Origin: a virus
Virus genome (UHGV): UHGV-0142298
Reading direction: 5' to 3' (one strand)
DNA: 37,340 nt
Part shown: positions 2,457 through 11,409 of the stretch, one piece after another
Position numbering within the stretch: the first letter of the stretch is position 1
Layout of the letters: every line of letters begins with the position of its first letter
Notes under the pieces: generated by a model
The model's database searches: none
Told to the model about the DNA's origin: nothing
What the model saw: the letters and a program-made list of their open reading frames with translations, nothing else
Position numbers and translations under genes: made by a program

Positions 2457-3079
2457 TGGTTGACTACTTCAATGTATCCTGTATCAACAATGAAAATGTC
2501 CGTTCTTCGCTCACAGAATTAGTGCGACAGCTTCGCACCAAGAGCTGACATTGTAATATCCGACAGGCTATTGCCTGTCAGTTAACAGTTACGTGTTATA
2601 AAAGGTCAGGCGGGATCCTGACTAGGTGTGTTTAAAGAAGTGCTGGTGGTGAGCGGGTGTTGTGTCCAATTTCCACAGAAAAAAATCTGAGAAACTATAC
2701 CCAATAGTTGTATTGAATCACTGACGAGACAGCCTCATATTTATCAGGACTGGTGTACTTCCAATTCAGGAGGTTGTCGTGCTGGTTCTCAAATGTGCGC
2801 TAGCTATTGCGGCTGTAATGGCAATTTATTGTCTTGCTGTTGTTCTTACGGATCGCCTTTCTGATTGATTTTATATTGGCGAGGTGACGTGAGTTAAGTA
2901 GAATTGCTGCGGGTGCTTGAGGCTATCTGCCTCAGGCATGAACACCAACGGCAGATAGAGAAAAGCCCCAGTTAACATTACGCGTCCTGCAAGACGCTTA
3001 ACATTAATCTGAGGCCAATTTCATGCTAGACACATGTAGGTTAGCCTCTTACGTGCCGGAAGGCAAGGAGAAGCAGGCT

Positions 3080-3235
3080 ATGAAGCAGCAAAAGGCGATG
3101 TTAATCGCCCTGATCGTCATCTGTTTAACCGTCATAGTGACGGCACTGGTAACGAGGAAAGACCTCTGCGAGGTACGAATCCGAACCGGCCAGACGGAGG
3201 TCGCTGTCTTCACAGCTTACGAACCTGAGGAGTAA
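3080..3235 (+). CDS. hokD: Hok/Gef-family membrane toxin (type I toxin)
   Basis: 51-aa product MKQQKAMLIALIVICLTVIVTALVTRKDLCEVRIRTGQTEVAVFTAYEPEE has the Hok signature (TM helix, LTRK.LCE.R, EVAAF..YE); the ORF track extends it upstream to 3023 (mok-like leader frame); intrinsic terminator follows. Confidence 0.8.
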   Translation: MKQQKAMLIALIVICLTVIVTALVTRKDLCEVRIRTGQTEVAVFTAYEPEE

Positions 3236-3299
3236 GAGACTAGGCGGGGGAGAAATCCCTCGCCACCTCTGATGAGTCAGGCATCCTCAATGCACCCGC

Positions 3300-3326
3300 G
3301 CTTAACCCGCTTCGGCGGGTTTTTCT
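3300..3326 (+). terminator. Intrinsic terminator downstream of hok
   Basis: AACCCGC-TTCG-GCGGGTT hairpin followed by a T-run. Confidence 0.6.
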
Positions 3327-3336
3327 AGCATCTACC

Positions 3337-3376
3337 TGGTTGACAAAGTCGATGTTAAATGGAAATATGGTTGACA
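3337..3376 (+). promoter_or_regulatory. Direct repeat TGGTTGACA x2 (31 bp apart) overlapping -35-like TTGACA boxes; candidate promoter/operator of the 3402-5158 operon
   Basis: TGGTTGACA at 3337-3345 and 3368-3376, immediately upstream of the ATG at 3402. Confidence 0.35.
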
Positions 3377-3401: not shown

Positions 3402-4016
3402 ATGCAGAATTTATCTCAACAGTTGTTAGAAGCATATGACAAGGAGTGCCGCAAAGAGCTTTCGATCGCGTTAGCACAGGCTTATCTTCATTCGCATATG
3501 AAGGCAAAAGAGTTTGGTTCTTTTTGGGCTCAAGCACAGTCATATTTGCGCTGGTTTTATGCCGATGCATTGCTTGAGAATGCGGCTAAGCGTGTGGGGC
3601 TGGATTTTGAAGTCGGTAGCAATGCTGCTAAAAATTGTAAACACATTGCGATTCACTCGAACAACTGGAAAATGACGGCACATCATTTATCGGGTAATGC
3701 GCCACTTCCTAAGCAGGCATTGTATAGAGCTGTTTACGCTAATCAAAATTATGAATTGAATTTTGGGGATGAAAATGCCGACTCCCTGGATGGGAGAGCG
3801 TCTGGTGGACATGTTTATATGTTACATGATGGCAGTAATCAGCACTTGTCCAAACTGAATTTAACTGTTCCTTCTTCGGATAATTACGGGATTCTTTATA
3901 CTGAGTCTTTACCAATTATGACGATGGTAGAAGTTGAAGCAGAAAATGTGGATTCTGAGATTGAAGATAAAATCAAGATTCTTACCGAACAAATAATTAA
4001 ATCACAGCAATCATGA
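3402..4016 (+). CDS. Hypothetical protein, first gene of a two-gene cassette (candidate effector/partner of the HTH-peptidase)
   Basis: 204-aa ORF; its stop overlaps the next start in ATGA (4013-4016), implying translational coupling; no recognisable domain or TM segment. Confidence 0.55.
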   Translation: MQNLSQQLLEAYDKECRKELSIALAQAYLHSHMKAKEFGSFWAQAQSYLRWFYADALLENAAKRVGLDFEVGSNAAKNCKHIAIHSNNWKMTAHHLSGNAPLPKQALYRAVYANQNYELNFGDENADSLDGRASGGHVYMLHDGSNQHLSKLNLTVPSSDNYGILYTESLPIMTMVEVEAENVDSEIEDKIKILTEQIIKSQQS

Positions 4017-5158
4017 GCATGAATATCGCACAAACACCATTTACTGATAAATCGTTTAATCCTCGTCGCCTTGAGGAGGCAAGAGAGGCAAAAGGGTTGA
4101 CGATGGCTGAACTTGCCAGAGTGCTCAATATTTCAAGACAAGCTATTTCGTCATTTGAGAAGGGGTTGAAGTCTCCCTCTGCTGATACACTTTCTGCAAT
4201 AGCCAAGGTGTTAGGATTTCCAGAACGATTTTTCTTAGCCTCCAGTGCTTCTCCATCTCTGGAGGGGGCGATTCATTTTAGAAGTCGTTCAACTGCGACC
4301 AAAAAGGCTCGAGTTACAGGGAAAACACGTGGGCGTTGGGCGGCATTAATATTGGATGAATGTCTAAAATATGCTCAATTACCAGATGTGGTTCTGCCTG
4401 AATTCGATATTATTGATTTTGAGGTTCTGTCTCTATCTGATATTGAGGATATGTCCACCCAATTAAGGCGTTTTTGGGGGTTAGGTGATGGTCCAATACT
4501 CAATTTAACTAGACTTGTTGAAAATAAAGGAATCGTGGTTTCTCATTTACCTTCTGGTGAGAAAGTTGATGCCTTTTCGTTCTGGCATAATGGGCGGCCT
4601 TTAATTATGTTAGATAGCTCGAAGACGGCTGTTCGCATGCGATTTAGTCTTGCTCATGAACTTGGCCATTTAATTATGCATAGGGCAGTGGAGGATGACT
4701 ACCTGAATGATAAAGAATTATTCGACCTGGTGGAGTTGCAGGCCGATTATTTTGCCTCCAGCTTTTTAATGCCAGCCACCACTTTCGGGCGTGAATTTTA
4801 TAGTCCAAATTTATCAGCGTTAGAACGATTAAAACTACGTTGGATTACATCTATCGGTAGTATTGCCATGAGGAGTCATAGCCTTAAGTTAATCAGCGAT
4901 AATCAGAAAAGCTATATATTTAAGCAATTAGCGCCATTCCATCGTAGGGAGCCGTTAGATGATGCAATCCCAAAAGAAGAGCCTGAGTTACTTAATAAGT
5001 TACTTTTACTTCTTGATAAGCATTCAATCATAAAGGTAACTGAGTTAACTGATATCTTTGCTCTTCCCTTAAATGAGTTATCTGCAATTACACGATTTAA
5101 AGAATCAGATATGATTCATTCTGACAATGTTATTTCATTTACCATAAAACAAAAATAA
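4013..5158 (+). CDS. HTH-XRE DNA-binding domain fused to an ImmA/IrrE-type (M78-like) zinc metallopeptidase
   Basis: N-terminal HTH (LTMAELARVLNISRQAISSFEKG); central HEXXH motif in SLAHELGHLIMH with a downstream acidic/aromatic segment (ELQADYFASSFLMP) typical of ImmA/IrrE peptidases. Confidence 0.75.
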   Translation: MSMNIAQTPFTDKSFNPRRLEEAREAKGLTMAELARVLNISRQAISSFEKGLKSPSADTLSAIAKVLGFPERFFLASSASPSLEGAIHFRSRSTATKKARVTGKTRGRWAALILDECLKYAQLPDVVLPEFDIIDFEVLSLSDIEDMSTQLRRFWGLGDGPILNLTRLVENKGIVVSHLPSGEKVDAFSFWHNGRPLIMLDSSKTAVRMRFSLAHELGHLIMHRAVEDDYLNDKELFDLVELQADYFASSFLMPATTFGREFYSPNLSALERLKLRWITSIGSIAMRSHSLKLISDNQKSYIFKQLAPFHRREPLDDAIPKEEPELLNKLLLLLDKHSIIKVTELTDIFALPLNELSAITRFKESDMIHSDNVISFTIKQK

Positions 5159-10634: not shown

Positions 10635-10997
10635 ATTAATATTAAATCGGATTATTTTTAGCGCTGAATGTGAAATTTAAATAAAAAGGACTCTTCCATG
10701 AGTCAAAATCCTTGAAATCTTAAGGGTAAGATAAAAGGTCATTAGACAGAATGACACGTTTTATTAATAAATAAAGCTATTGTTTCATTCGTGTGTTTTT
10801 CTTTACAAAAGTAATCCTTGCTATGGTTGGTTAATCATGCGTTAATGGTGTTCTGGTTTGTTACAAAATTATCTGAAGCAGTCATTGTTATAATTTTATT
10901 ATTTGTACCTCTTGAGATTTCCTTGTTGGTTTTTCTCTCTGATATTTTTTTTCGGACCATTCTGCCCAAGGGCTAACTTCTTCAAAAGGTAATAATG

Positions 10998-11210
10998 ATG
11001 TCTAACAAAATGACTGGTTTAGTGAAATGGTTTAACCCTGAAAAAGGTTTTGGTTTCATCACGCCGAAAGATGGTAGCAAAGATGTGTTTGTCCATTTCT
11101 CAGCTATTCAGAGCAACGATTTCAAAACGTTAACTGAGAATCAGGAAGTCGAATTTGGTATTGAGAACGGACCTAAAGGCCCCGCGGCTGTTCATGTTGT
11201 GGCACTTTGA
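10998..11210 (+). CDS. cspI: Cold-shock protein (CspA family)
   Basis: [23 protein letters not shown]...VFVHFSAIQ contains the RNP1/RNP2 motifs of CspA-family proteins; long AT-rich leader upstream (10640-10995). Confidence 0.8.
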
Positions 11211-11409
11211 GGTAGATAATATTACAAACCATATTCACTTTAGATGCCCGTGTTGCCATGGTTCTCAGTATAGAACATCATCTTTTGATGTTTCTGACAG
11301 GAATCCTTTCGGGGCAAAATGTATCTTTTGTAAATCAATGATGATTACATTTGATAATATTTCACAATACTTAAATGTTAGCCGTCTATCGTTAGATTTA
11401 AGAAAGTGA
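11194..11409 (+). CDS. Possible small zinc-ribbon protein
   Basis: ORF with CPCCHG...CIFC spacing, ending just before a strong terminator; start unclear and overlaps the cspI 3' end. Confidence 0.2.

What the first reader, a model, noticed from the sequence alone, without database searches (positions are those of the whole stretch)
3023..3326. Hok-family type I toxin without the RelBE neighbours that accompany hokD in Qin
The 51-aa product has the Hok signature, with an upstream overlapping leader frame (mok-like, from 3023) and a downstream hairpin terminator. In K-12 Qin, hokD follows relBE; here the upstream neighbour is an unrelated minus-strand ORF, so this locus may be an independent hok/sok-type module. 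The expected antisense Sok RNA promoter would lie in 2950-3080 on the minus strand.
Basis: partly seen in the sequence, partly recalled or inferred. Interest (0 to 1): 0.5.

Follow-up and report, generated by a model that had tools for sequence, protein, structure and literature searches.

The report
Ordinary intact hok/sok toxin-antitoxin locus
This is a complete, well-known hok/mok/sok toxin-antitoxin cassette (toxin peptide identical to E. coli HokD) in a lambda-like prophage; the same arrangement occurs in most E. coli genomes, so it is ordinary.

Summary

- **Toxin.** Window 3080-3235 (+) encodes a 51-aa Hok/Gef peptide (Pfam E = 1.2e-23). It carries the same protein accession as K-12 HokD.
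- **Regulatory parts.** All hok/sok elements are present:
  - hok promoter at 2876-2904, with the mRNA starting near 2911
  - a 5' element (2911-2922) that pairs with a 3' element (3285-3297), supported by compensatory changes across genera
  - a mok leader frame from 3023 with its own ribosome-binding site
  - a 71-nt antisense Sok RNA (3031 to 2961, minus strand), whose -10 box (3043-3038) has the same sequence as the box whose mutation abolished sokW antitoxin activity in prophage Sp5
  - a terminator at 3304-3324
- **Closest relative.** The locus is collinear and about 94% identical with mokW/hokW/sokW of phage 933W/Sp5, a tested type I toxin-antitoxin system.
- **Distribution.** At least 80% of the locus is found in 3,926 of 5,426 complete E. 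coli genomes. The K-12 relE-hokD junction is in 1,164. K-12 homology begins only at window 3066, so K-12 is the truncated form.
- **relBE.** Neither gene is in the window.
- **Side notes.** A Rosmer defence pair lies just downstream, a conserved 29-codon hydrophobic ORF lies just upstream, and the stretch matching the Sok 5' tail is hypervariable.

The parts
2876..2904 (+). hok promoter: -35 TTGGCG (2876-2881), 17-nt spacer, -10 TAGAAT (2899-2904)
   Evidence: Found by the promoter scan, 9 of 12 matches. A -10-like hexamer (TAGAAT, TATAAT, TAGTAT or TATATT) keeps a fixed distance from the conserved GGGTGC transcript start in loci from several genera.
2911..3324 (+). Full-length hok mRNA. Both ends are inferred.
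   Evidence: The Rfam sok model begins at 2911. The alignment with an R1-type hok/sok locus and 29 others starts its conserved block there. The fold has a z-score of -6.1.
2911..2922 (+). tac element: the 5' end GGGUGCUUGAGG, which pairs with fbi
   Evidence: The minimum-energy fold pairs 2911-2922 with 3285-3297. Across 31 loci 91.6% of cells are paired and 4 of 12 pairs show changes on both sides (helix 1).
2965..2970 (+). Anti-SD (ucb-like) GCCCCA, predicted to pair with the mok ribosome-binding site
   Evidence: Pairs with 3010-3015 in the full-length and the truncated folds. AGCCCC is nearly invariant in the alignment.
2961..3031 (-). Sok antisense RNA, 71 nt: 15-nt single-stranded 5' tail (3031-3017), long hairpin (3016-2964), U run
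   Evidence: Mapped from the sokW feature annotated in phage 933W. Folds at -28.7 kcal/mol, z-score -5.1. The hairpin shows changes on both sides at 6 pairs (helix 5).
3038..3066 (-). Sok promoter: -35 TTGCCT (3066-3061), 17-nt spacer, -10 TAACCT (3043-3038)
   Evidence: Read from the minus strand. It aligns with the sequence I recall as the R1 sok promoter (TTGCGC and TATCCT). The -10 box has the same sequence as in Sp5, where primer YO-421 changes TAGGTTA to CCGGCTC and sokW antitoxin activity is lost (PMC8621323). The consensus scan missed it.
3011..3014 (+). mok ribosome-binding site GAGG
   Evidence: Lies 8 nt before ATG 3023. GAGG precedes the aligned ATG in all 31 loci, and the ATG itself is kept in 30 of 31.
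3023..3235 (+). mok leader frame, 70 codons, in frame with hok and ending at the same stop
   Evidence: Same position as mokW in phage 933W. In related loci the frame relative to hok is 0, 1 or 2 and mok always reaches the hok start, so what is kept is translation across the hok start, not a peptide sequence.
3017..3031 (+). Stretch complementary to the Sok 5' tail; it covers the mok start codon
   Evidence: Complement of the unpaired Sok tail. It is the most variable transcribed stretch upstream of the hok stop codon among 9 close relatives: mean pairwise difference 0.30-0.36, against 0.04 or less over most of the Sok hairpin (windows starting 2970-3000).
3065..3070 (+). hok ribosome-binding site AAGGAG; its CAA overlaps the -35 TTG of the Sok promoter on the other strand
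   Evidence: CAAGGAG is nearly invariant in 31 loci. The fold pairs this stretch and the hok start with 3211-3226.
3080..3235 (+). hok coding sequence, 51 aa, same protein accession as K-12 HokD
   Evidence: Pfam HOK_GEF E = 1.2e-23. WP_000813254.1 in both strain Ch1 and K-12. 47 of 51 residues identical to HokW.
3285..3297 (+). fbi element CCUCAAUGCACCC, the 3' partner of tac
3304..3324 (+). Intrinsic terminator: stem AACCCGC / GCGGGUU, UUCG loop, T run 3320-3324
   Evidence: Sequence and fold. Conserved in K-12 hokD and several E. coli and Shigella copies.

Best explanation
The locus at about 2876-3326 is an intact hok/mok/sok type I toxin-antitoxin cassette of the hokD/hokW subtype. It sits in a Qin/Rac-like lambdoid prophage of E. 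coli, between the replication genes and the late-gene region.

**Likely mechanism (inferred from the plasmid R1 model and from sokW experiments)**
1. The hok promoter makes a stable mRNA of about 415 nt.
2. The mRNA's 5' end (tac) pairs with a 3' element (fbi). This closes the molecule and keeps the mok and hok ribosome-binding sites base-paired, so the full-length mRNA is neither translated nor bound by Sok.
3. Slow trimming at the 3' end removes fbi and lets the 5' end refold.
4. Ribosomes can then start at mok (3023) and read across the hok start, which allows Hok to be made.
5. A constitutive promoter on the opposite strand makes an unstable 71-nt Sok RNA. Its free 5' tail pairs across the mok start codon, blocks mok and therefore hok translation, and marks the duplex for RNase III.
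6. When Sok is no longer replenished, Hok inserts into the inner membrane and collapses the membrane potential.

**Shown here:** the peptide, all the sequence elements, the tac-fbi and Sok hairpin structures with covariation, and the near-identity to hokW-sokW.

**Not shown here:** expression, mRNA processing, toxicity in this context, and the biological role. The role could be prophage retention, help with lysis at induction as reported for hokW-sokW, or defence against other phages.
For: **Peptide**
- Pfam HOK_GEF at 82.9 bits.
- Same protein accession as K-12 HokD.
- HokD served as a literature-documented toxic control in a recent overexpression assay (bioRxiv 10.1101/2025.08.07.668861).

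**Leader and promoters**
- Rfam sok RF01794 at 115.8 bits over 2911-3085.
- hok promoter found by the scan.
- The Sok -10 box has the same sequence as the one whose mutation abolished sokW activity in Sp5.

**Closest relatives**
- Collinear with the annotated mokW/hokW/sokW of phage 933W.
- hokW-sokW was shown to be a type I toxin-antitoxin pair: the toxin localises to the inner membrane and the antitoxin RNA partly depends on RNase III and Hfq (PMC8621323).

**RNA structure**
- tac-fbi pairing appears in the minimum-energy fold, z-score -6.1.
- On 31 loci from Escherichia, Shigella, Kluyvera, Photorhabdus, Erwinia, Citrobacter and an R1-type plasmid, 83.3% of cells are paired, against 35-43% when partners are slid by 1-3 columns.
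- 44 pairs carry changes on both sides, against 14-30 when slid. None of 500 shuffles reached the observed value on four of the five measures.
- Sok folds into a 15-nt free tail plus hairpin, z-score -5.1.

**mok**
- The start codon is conserved in 30 of 31 loci and the GAGG site in all 31. The frame relative to hok is not conserved.
Against: - Nothing here shows expression.
- The Sok -10 box TAACCT matches the consensus at only 3 of 6 positions, and the generic scan did not call it.
- Minimum-energy folds of 3'-truncated mRNA did not reproduce the open, translatable conformation. The mok ribosome-binding site stays paired with 2965-2970.
- Chromosomal hokA, hokB and hokC loci reportedly did not give post-segregational killing and did not respond to rifampicin (quoted in bioRxiv 10.1101/2025.08.07.668861). 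An intact sequence therefore does not guarantee the plasmid-style behaviour.
- The structure tested was derived from the window sequence itself, which favours it over the slid controls.
Confidence: 0.9

Rival explanations
1. The locus is intact in sequence but functionally silent or decaying, like the hok copies of K-12. It would be carried along by the prophage with no effect on the cell.
For: - The K-12 hok homologs other than hokB are suggested to be inactivated by insertion elements or genomic rearrangements (PMC12214031).
- Wild-type chromosomal hokA, hokB and hokC loci did not mediate post-segregational killing (quoted).
- This prophage looks partly defective: it lacks 1,618 bp that in strain Ch1 hold the Q antiterminator.
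Against: - Every regulatory element is present, and the structures are kept by compensatory changes.
- The Sok -10 box matches that of the functional sokW.
- The full locus is kept at 90-100% identity in 3,926 genomes.
- The 94% identical hokW-sokW is active in its native prophage (PMC8621323).
Confidence: 0.12
2. The locus is a hok relic fed by read-through from an upstream operon, as in K-12 where hokD is the third gene behind relBE, and has no antisense control of its own.
For: The peptide has the same accession as K-12 HokD, and the stretch 3066-3324 is 97.7% identical to K-12.
Against: - relB and relE are absent from the window.
- The 155 nt of leader missing from K-12 (2911-3065), together with the hok promoter upstream and the Sok promoter, is present here and matches the Rfam model.
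- The nearest upstream annotated gene is on the opposite strand.
Confidence: 0.02
3. The mechanism is the same, but the biological role is not prophage retention. The cassette would be a lysis helper at induction, as proposed for hokW-sokW, or an abortive-infection defence alongside the neighbouring Rosmer system.
For: - Deleting hokW-sokW halved Sp5 phage release, and HokW is produced after mitomycin C in a RecA-dependent way (PMC8621323).
- R1 hok/sok is reported to reduce T4 plating (cited).
- A Rosmer pair lies 76 nt downstream of the hok terminator.
Against: - A large survey found no enrichment of hok next to defence systems (bioRxiv 10.1101/2025.08.07.668861).
- This prophage copy lacks the Q antiterminator region relative to strain Ch1, so a lysis-timing role may not apply here.
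- Nothing in the sequence separates these roles.
Confidence: 0.4

Closest known systems
mokW/hokW/sokW of Stx2 phage 933W and Sakai prophage 5 (Sp5)
   Same: - Collinear from window 2891 to 3307 at 94% DNA identity.
- Same positions for mok, hok and the antisense RNA.
- Same Sok -10 box sequence.
- Toxin identical at 47 of 51 residues.
- Also carried by a lambdoid prophage.
   Different: - The four toxin differences are at the C-terminus (TAYEPEE here, VDYESEK in HokW).
- The Sok 5' tail and its target differ at several positions: AATTTCATGCTAGAC here, CAATCCATGCTGAAC in 933W.
- The terminator region diverges after about 3305.
- In 933W the locus sits near the right end of the genome, not between the replication and Q regions.
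hok/sok (parB) of plasmid R1 and other IncF plasmids
   Same: - Same set of parts in the same order: tac, Sok hairpin, mok site and ATG, Sok promoter overlapping the hok ribosome-binding site, hok, fbi.
- mok is in frame with hok in both.
- Matches the Rfam model built for the family.
   Different: - Much lower sequence identity across the locus. HokW, which is 47 of 51 identical to this toxin, shares 44% identity with R1 Hok (PMC8621323).
- The Sok hairpin is about 20 nt longer here, and the 5' hairpin loop is shorter.
- Carried on a prophage, not a plasmid.
hokD (relF) of the Qin prophage in E. coli K-12
   Same: Same toxin accession. 97.7% DNA identity from 3066 to 3324, including the hok ribosome-binding site, fbi and terminator. 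Same kind of prophage, with a shared downstream gene and DUF968 gene.
   Different: - K-12 lacks everything upstream of 3066: the hok promoter, tac, the Sok RNA gene, the mok start and the Sok promoter. relBE takes their place.
- K-12 has rem where this window has the Rosmer pair.
- The K-12 junction is the minority form: 1,164 genomes against 3,926.

Membership tests
[quoted passage not shown] | Hok/Gef toxin peptide of about 50 aa | tested here: met
   HOK_GEF at 82.9 bits, E = 1.2e-23, all 42 profile positions. Same protein accession as K-12 HokD.
[quoted passage not shown] | Upstream mok frame with its own ribosome-binding site, translated across the hok start | tested here: met
   GAGG at 3011-3014, ATG at 3023, frame open to 3235. 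The start codon is conserved in 30 of 31 related loci and the GAGG site in all 31, while the frame relative to hok varies.
[quoted passage not shown] | Antisense Sok RNA gene inside the leader: own promoter, free 5' tail, terminator hairpin | tested here: met
   Sequence level only. -35 TTGCCT and -10 TAACCT with a 17-nt spacer. 71-nt RNA with a 15-nt tail and hairpin, z-score -5.1. Maps onto the sokW annotated in 933W. The -10 box has the same sequence as the experimentally mutated Sp5 box. The Rfam hit is on the hok-sense strand and spans 175 nt, so it recognises the conserved leader, not the direction of the antisense transcript.
[quoted passage not shown] | Long-range tac-fbi pairing between the 5' and 3' ends that closes the full-length mRNA | tested here: met
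   2911-2922 pairs with 3285-3297 in the minimum-energy fold. 91.6% of cells paired, with 4 pairs changed on both sides, across 31 loci.
[quoted passage not shown] | Refolding after 3' trimming (tac-ucb stem) that frees the mok ribosome-binding site and exposes the Sok target | tested here: inconclusive
   In truncated folds the 5' end switches to a local hairpin (2911-2923 with 2929-2946), but the mok site stays paired with 2965-2970. By eye, a 7-bp tac-ucb pairing with one bulge is possible (GGG-U-GCUU with AAGCCCC).
[quoted passage not shown] | Membrane toxicity of Hok, and neutralisation by Sok | not testable with these tools
   Literature only. HokD was used as a known toxic control (bioRxiv 10.1101/2025.08.07.668861). 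HokW is toxic and sokW counteracts it (PMC8621323).
K-12-type relB-relE-hokD (relF) operon | hokD directly downstream of relBE, without its own leader or sok | tested here: not met
   No relB or relE in the window (best tblastn E-values 1.3 and 9.1). The full leader is present here, and K-12 homology starts only at 3066.
hokW/sokW subtype of lambdoid prophages | Collinear, highly similar mok/hok/sok cassette on a lambdoid phage or prophage | tested here: met
   94% identity over window 2891-3307 to 933W and Sp5-type phages. 97% over the whole query to phage Tritos. The flanking genes are prophage genes: Cro/CI, YdaT, DUF977, DUF968 and holin.

The most novel reading that the evidence does not exclude
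The 15-nt stretch where the free 5' tail of Sok meets the mok start region (3017-3031) may be under diversifying selection. Each hok/sok copy would then have a private antitoxin 'address', so that several copies in one genome do not silence one another. Among nine close relatives this stretch is the most variable transcribed part upstream of the hok stop codon, while most of the adjacent Sok hairpin and most of the hok coding sequence barely vary. At least five different tail sequences occur among those nine loci, including different ones within one genome. E. coli genomes hold up to 10 places that match this locus.
Probability: 0.4. Interest if true: 0.3.

Novelty: already known. Interest (0 to 1): 0.1.

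Why it matters
For discovery it matters little. This is a textbook type I toxin-antitoxin cassette, annotated as hokD in thousands of genomes, and a 94% identical copy has been tested experimentally.

Its practical value is for annotation:
- RefSeq marks only the 51-aa gene here, leaving out mok, the Sok RNA and the regulatory structure.
- The name "hokD" hides the fact that K-12's copy is the truncated exception and this full-leader form is the common one.

Two modest leads remain:
- Variation in the Sok tail may be a way to keep co-resident copies independent.
- The slot just downstream of hok holds different cargo in different strains: Rosmer here and in phage Tritos, rem in K-12.

Tried and rejected
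- **Promoter scan.** It found the hok promoter but not the Sok promoter, whose -10 box matches the consensus at only 3 of 6 positions. I placed the Sok promoter by alignment to 933W and an R1-type locus, and by the Sp5 mutagenesis primers.
- **Terminator scan.** It missed the hok terminator and reported only a weak hairpin inside the 29-codon ORF (2803-2822). I took the terminator from the sequence and the fold.
- **Truncated mRNA folds.** Folding mRNAs ending at 3284, 3280 and 3270 was meant to reproduce the open, translatable conformation of the R1 model. The 5' end did refold locally, but the mok ribosome-binding site stayed paired. Inconclusive.
- **relB/relE search and second hok copy.** Neither was found.
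- **PADLOC on Hok.** No model matched the peptide, which says nothing either way.
- **Minus-strand ORFs 2871-2978 (35 aa) and 3049-3213 (54 aa).** Considered as genes and rejected. They overlap the hok leader and coding sequence and are not annotated in strain Ch1 or phage Tritos.
- **mok frame.** I had recalled that R1 mok lies in a different frame from hok. The R1-type locus examined here shows it in frame, so I dropped that supposed difference.
- **Large searches not run.** The protein-database, representative-library and structure-prediction tools were not used. The toxin already carries the same accession as a named protein, so they would add nothing.

Full report
**1. What is at the coordinates**

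The plus strand has an ORF at 3080-3235. It encodes the 51-aa peptide MKQQKAMLIALIVICLTVIVTALVTRKDLCEVRIRTGQTEVAVFTAYEPEE. A 70-codon frame opens at ATG 3023 and runs into it in the same frame.

The peptide matches the whole Pfam HOK_GEF model at 82.9 bits, E = 1.2e-23. RefSeq gives it the same protein accession in E. coli strain Ch1 and in K-12, WP_000813254.1, named HokD. The window is 99.97% identical to the Ch1 chromosome over its first 6,125 bases, so it comes from an E. coli prophage.

A terminator follows the gene. The predicted stem is AACCCGC / GCGGGUU with a UUCG loop, and the T run is 3320-3324. The stated span 3023-3326 omits about 150 nt of leader and promoter that belong to the locus.

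**2. The regulatory anatomy is complete**

The Rfam sok model (RF01794) matches 2911-3085 at 115.8 bits, E = 7e-26, over the full model. The hit is on the hok-sense strand and is 175 nt long. It therefore recognises the conserved leader that contains the sok gene, and is not itself evidence for the antisense transcript.

- **hok promoter.** TTGGCG, 17 nt, TAGAAT at 2876-2904. This puts the transcript start near G2911. A -10-like hexamer keeps the same distance from the conserved GGGTGC in loci from several genera.
- **Sok promoter.** The minus strand reads -35 TTGCCT (3066-3061), a 17-nt spacer, and -10 TAACCT (3043-3038).
- **Sok RNA.** Transferring the sokW feature annotated in phage 933W through the alignment gives an RNA from 3031 to 2961. 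It folds into a 15-nt free 5' tail, a long hairpin and a U run: -28.7 kcal/mol, z-score -5.1. The tail is complementary to 3017-3031, which includes the mok start codon. The hairpin region covers the mok ribosome-binding site GAGG (3011-3014).
- **Weak consensus.** The -10 box matches the consensus at only 3 of 6 positions and the generic scan did not call it. It is nevertheless the same sequence as the one Takada et al. destroyed in Sp5: primer YO-421 changes TAGGTTA to CCGGCTC. That mutation abolished sokW antitoxin activity (PMC8621323).

**3. Fold-back elements**

The 416-nt transcript 2911-3326 folds at -171.4 kcal/mol, z-score -6.1. Its 5' end (2911-2922, GGGUGCUUGAGG) pairs with 3285-3297 (CCUCAAUGCACCC) just upstream of the terminator. 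This is the tac-fbi arrangement described for R1 hok mRNA (PMC9841398).

I aligned 31 loci: the window, 933W, an R1-type IncFII locus, and loci from Escherichia, Shigella, Kluyvera, Pseudocitrobacter, Citrobacter, Photorhabdus, Erwinia and Kalamiella. I then counted pairs for the window's predicted structure.

| Measure | Observed | Partners slid by 1-3 columns |
|---|---|---|
| Cells forming a standard pair | 83.3% | 35-43% |
| Pairs with changes on both sides | 44 | 14-30 |

- None of 500 shuffles reached the observed value on four of the five measures.
- The tac-fbi helix is 91.6% paired. It shows U-A to C-G in four sequences and G-C to A-U in three.
- The Sok hairpin has six pairs changed on both sides.
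- Caveat: the structure was derived from one of the aligned sequences, which favours it over the slid controls.

Folding 3'-truncated mRNAs moved the 5' end into a local hairpin but left the mok ribosome-binding site paired. The later refolding step of the R1 model is therefore not demonstrated here.

**4. The mok frame behaves as a regulatory ORF**

The ATG aligned with 3023 is kept in 30 of 31 loci, and GAGG precedes it in all 31. The frame relative to hok is 0, 1 or 2 in different loci, and mok always ends at or beyond the hok start. What is conserved is translation across the hok ribosome-binding site, not a Mok peptide. This fits translational coupling.

**5. Relation to K-12 hokD and to relBE**

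No relB or relE is in the window. K-12 matches the window only from 3066 to 3324, at 97.7% identity. The alignment shows relE sequence replacing everything upstream of the hok ribosome-binding site.

K-12 therefore lacks the hok promoter, tac, the Sok RNA gene, the mok start and the Sok promoter. This fits published statements that the K-12 hok homologs other than hokB are inactivated by insertion elements or genomic rearrangements (PMC12214031).

| Arrangement | Complete E. coli genomes (of 5,426) |
|---|---|
| At least 80% of window 2870-3340 (full-leader form) | 3,926 |
| K-12 relE-hokD junction | 1,164 |

A genome holds a median of 2 and up to 10 matching places. One strain (fECg99.1) has the intact leader followed by rem, as in Qin but without relBE.

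**6. Closest characterised relative**

The locus is collinear with mokW/hokW/sokW of Stx2 phage 933W and its Sp5-type relatives at 94% identity, and with phage Tritos at 97%. HokW differs at 4 of 51 residues.

For hokW-sokW, experiments showed the following (PMC8621323):
- HokW is toxic, and sokW neutralises it.
- Neutralisation partly depends on RNase III and Hfq.
- sokW RNA is lost after mitomycin C, and HokW appears in the inner membrane in a RecA-dependent way.
- Deleting the locus halved phage release.

A recent survey reports hok enrichment in prophages and used HokD as a known toxic control (bioRxiv 10.1101/2025.08.07.668861).

**7. Verdict**

The supposed oddity comes from using K-12 as the reference. 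Novelty: already known. Interest: low.

**8. Seen along the way**

- **Variable Sok target.** The stretch matching the Sok tail (windows within 3015-3034) is the most variable transcribed part upstream of the hok stop codon among nine close relatives. Mean pairwise difference is 0.30-0.36, against 0.04 or less over most of the Sok hairpin and most of the coding sequence. This could keep co-resident copies independent. It is the only mildly new idea here, and it is untested.
- **Rosmer pair downstream.** Immediately after the terminator, 3402-4016 and 4013-5158 match RmrT and RmrA of the Rosmer defence system.
- **Small ORF upstream.** A 29-codon hydrophobic ORF with a strong ribosome-binding site (2779-2868) is conserved.
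- **Deletion.** The window lacks 1,618 bp that in strain Ch1 carry the Q antiterminator and blc.

Noticed in passing
window 3402-4016 (+) and 4013-5158 (+): Two overlapping genes just downstream of the hok terminator match the Rosmer anti-phage defence pair. RmrA (HTH plus M78 peptidase) matches at E = 5.5e-102 over its full length, and RmrT at E = 7.5e-10 over part of it. Phage Tritos has the same pair after hokD. K-12 has rem in this slot and strain O111:H2 12A another gene, so the slot downstream of hok holds variable cargo.
   Followed up: partly
window 2779-2868 (+), with conserved upstream block about 2690-2760: An unannotated 29-codon ORF (GTG start, AGGAGG 2770-2775) encodes the hydrophobic peptide MLVLKCALAIAAVMAIYCLAVVLTDRLSD, right before the hok promoter. 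The frame is intact, with several synonymous changes, in phage Tritos and four other loci. The 256-nt block is in 1,673 of 5,426 E. coli genomes, sometimes without hok downstream. It is annotated in only some of them (WP_000960667.1). No Pfam or PADLOC match. It may be a small membrane protein.
   Followed up: partly
window 3015-3034: The stretch complementary to the free 5' tail of Sok is the most variable transcribed stretch upstream of the hok stop codon among nine close relatives. Mean pairwise difference is 0.30-0.36, against 0.04 or less over most of the flanking Sok hairpin. At least five tail variants occur among these loci, including different ones in copies from one genome.
   Followed up: partly
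window 6125/6126: Relative to strain Ch1 the window lacks 1,618 bp (L002 10257-11874). That segment holds the 3' part of the DUF968 gene, the Q antiterminator gene and blc. This prophage copy has therefore lost its late-gene antiterminator, and its DUF968 gene is truncated (weak partial Pfam hit).
   Followed up: partly
window 3218-3223 (hok codon 47, TAC, and following bases): TACGAA is invariant in all 31 aligned hok loci. It lies at the tyrosine codon aligned with Hok position 46, where A-to-I mRNA editing is reported to recode Tyr to Cys in hokC, hokD and hokE (PMC12214031).
   Followed up: no
window 10840-11256 (+): The Rfam cspA thermoregulator matches at 112.8 bits over the full model. 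This indicates a cold-shock protein gene with its 5' UTR inside the prophage. From memory, Qin carries similar genes (cspB, cspF, cspI).
   Followed up: no
L059 (E. coli ETEC4079) and L061 (strain 1506): In these strains the block with the 29-codon ORF is not followed by an annotated hokD gene. In L059 the hok promoter sequence is still present, but the next annotated genes are the 92-aa hypothetical and DUF968 genes. This suggests deletions of hok in some lineages.
   Followed up: no
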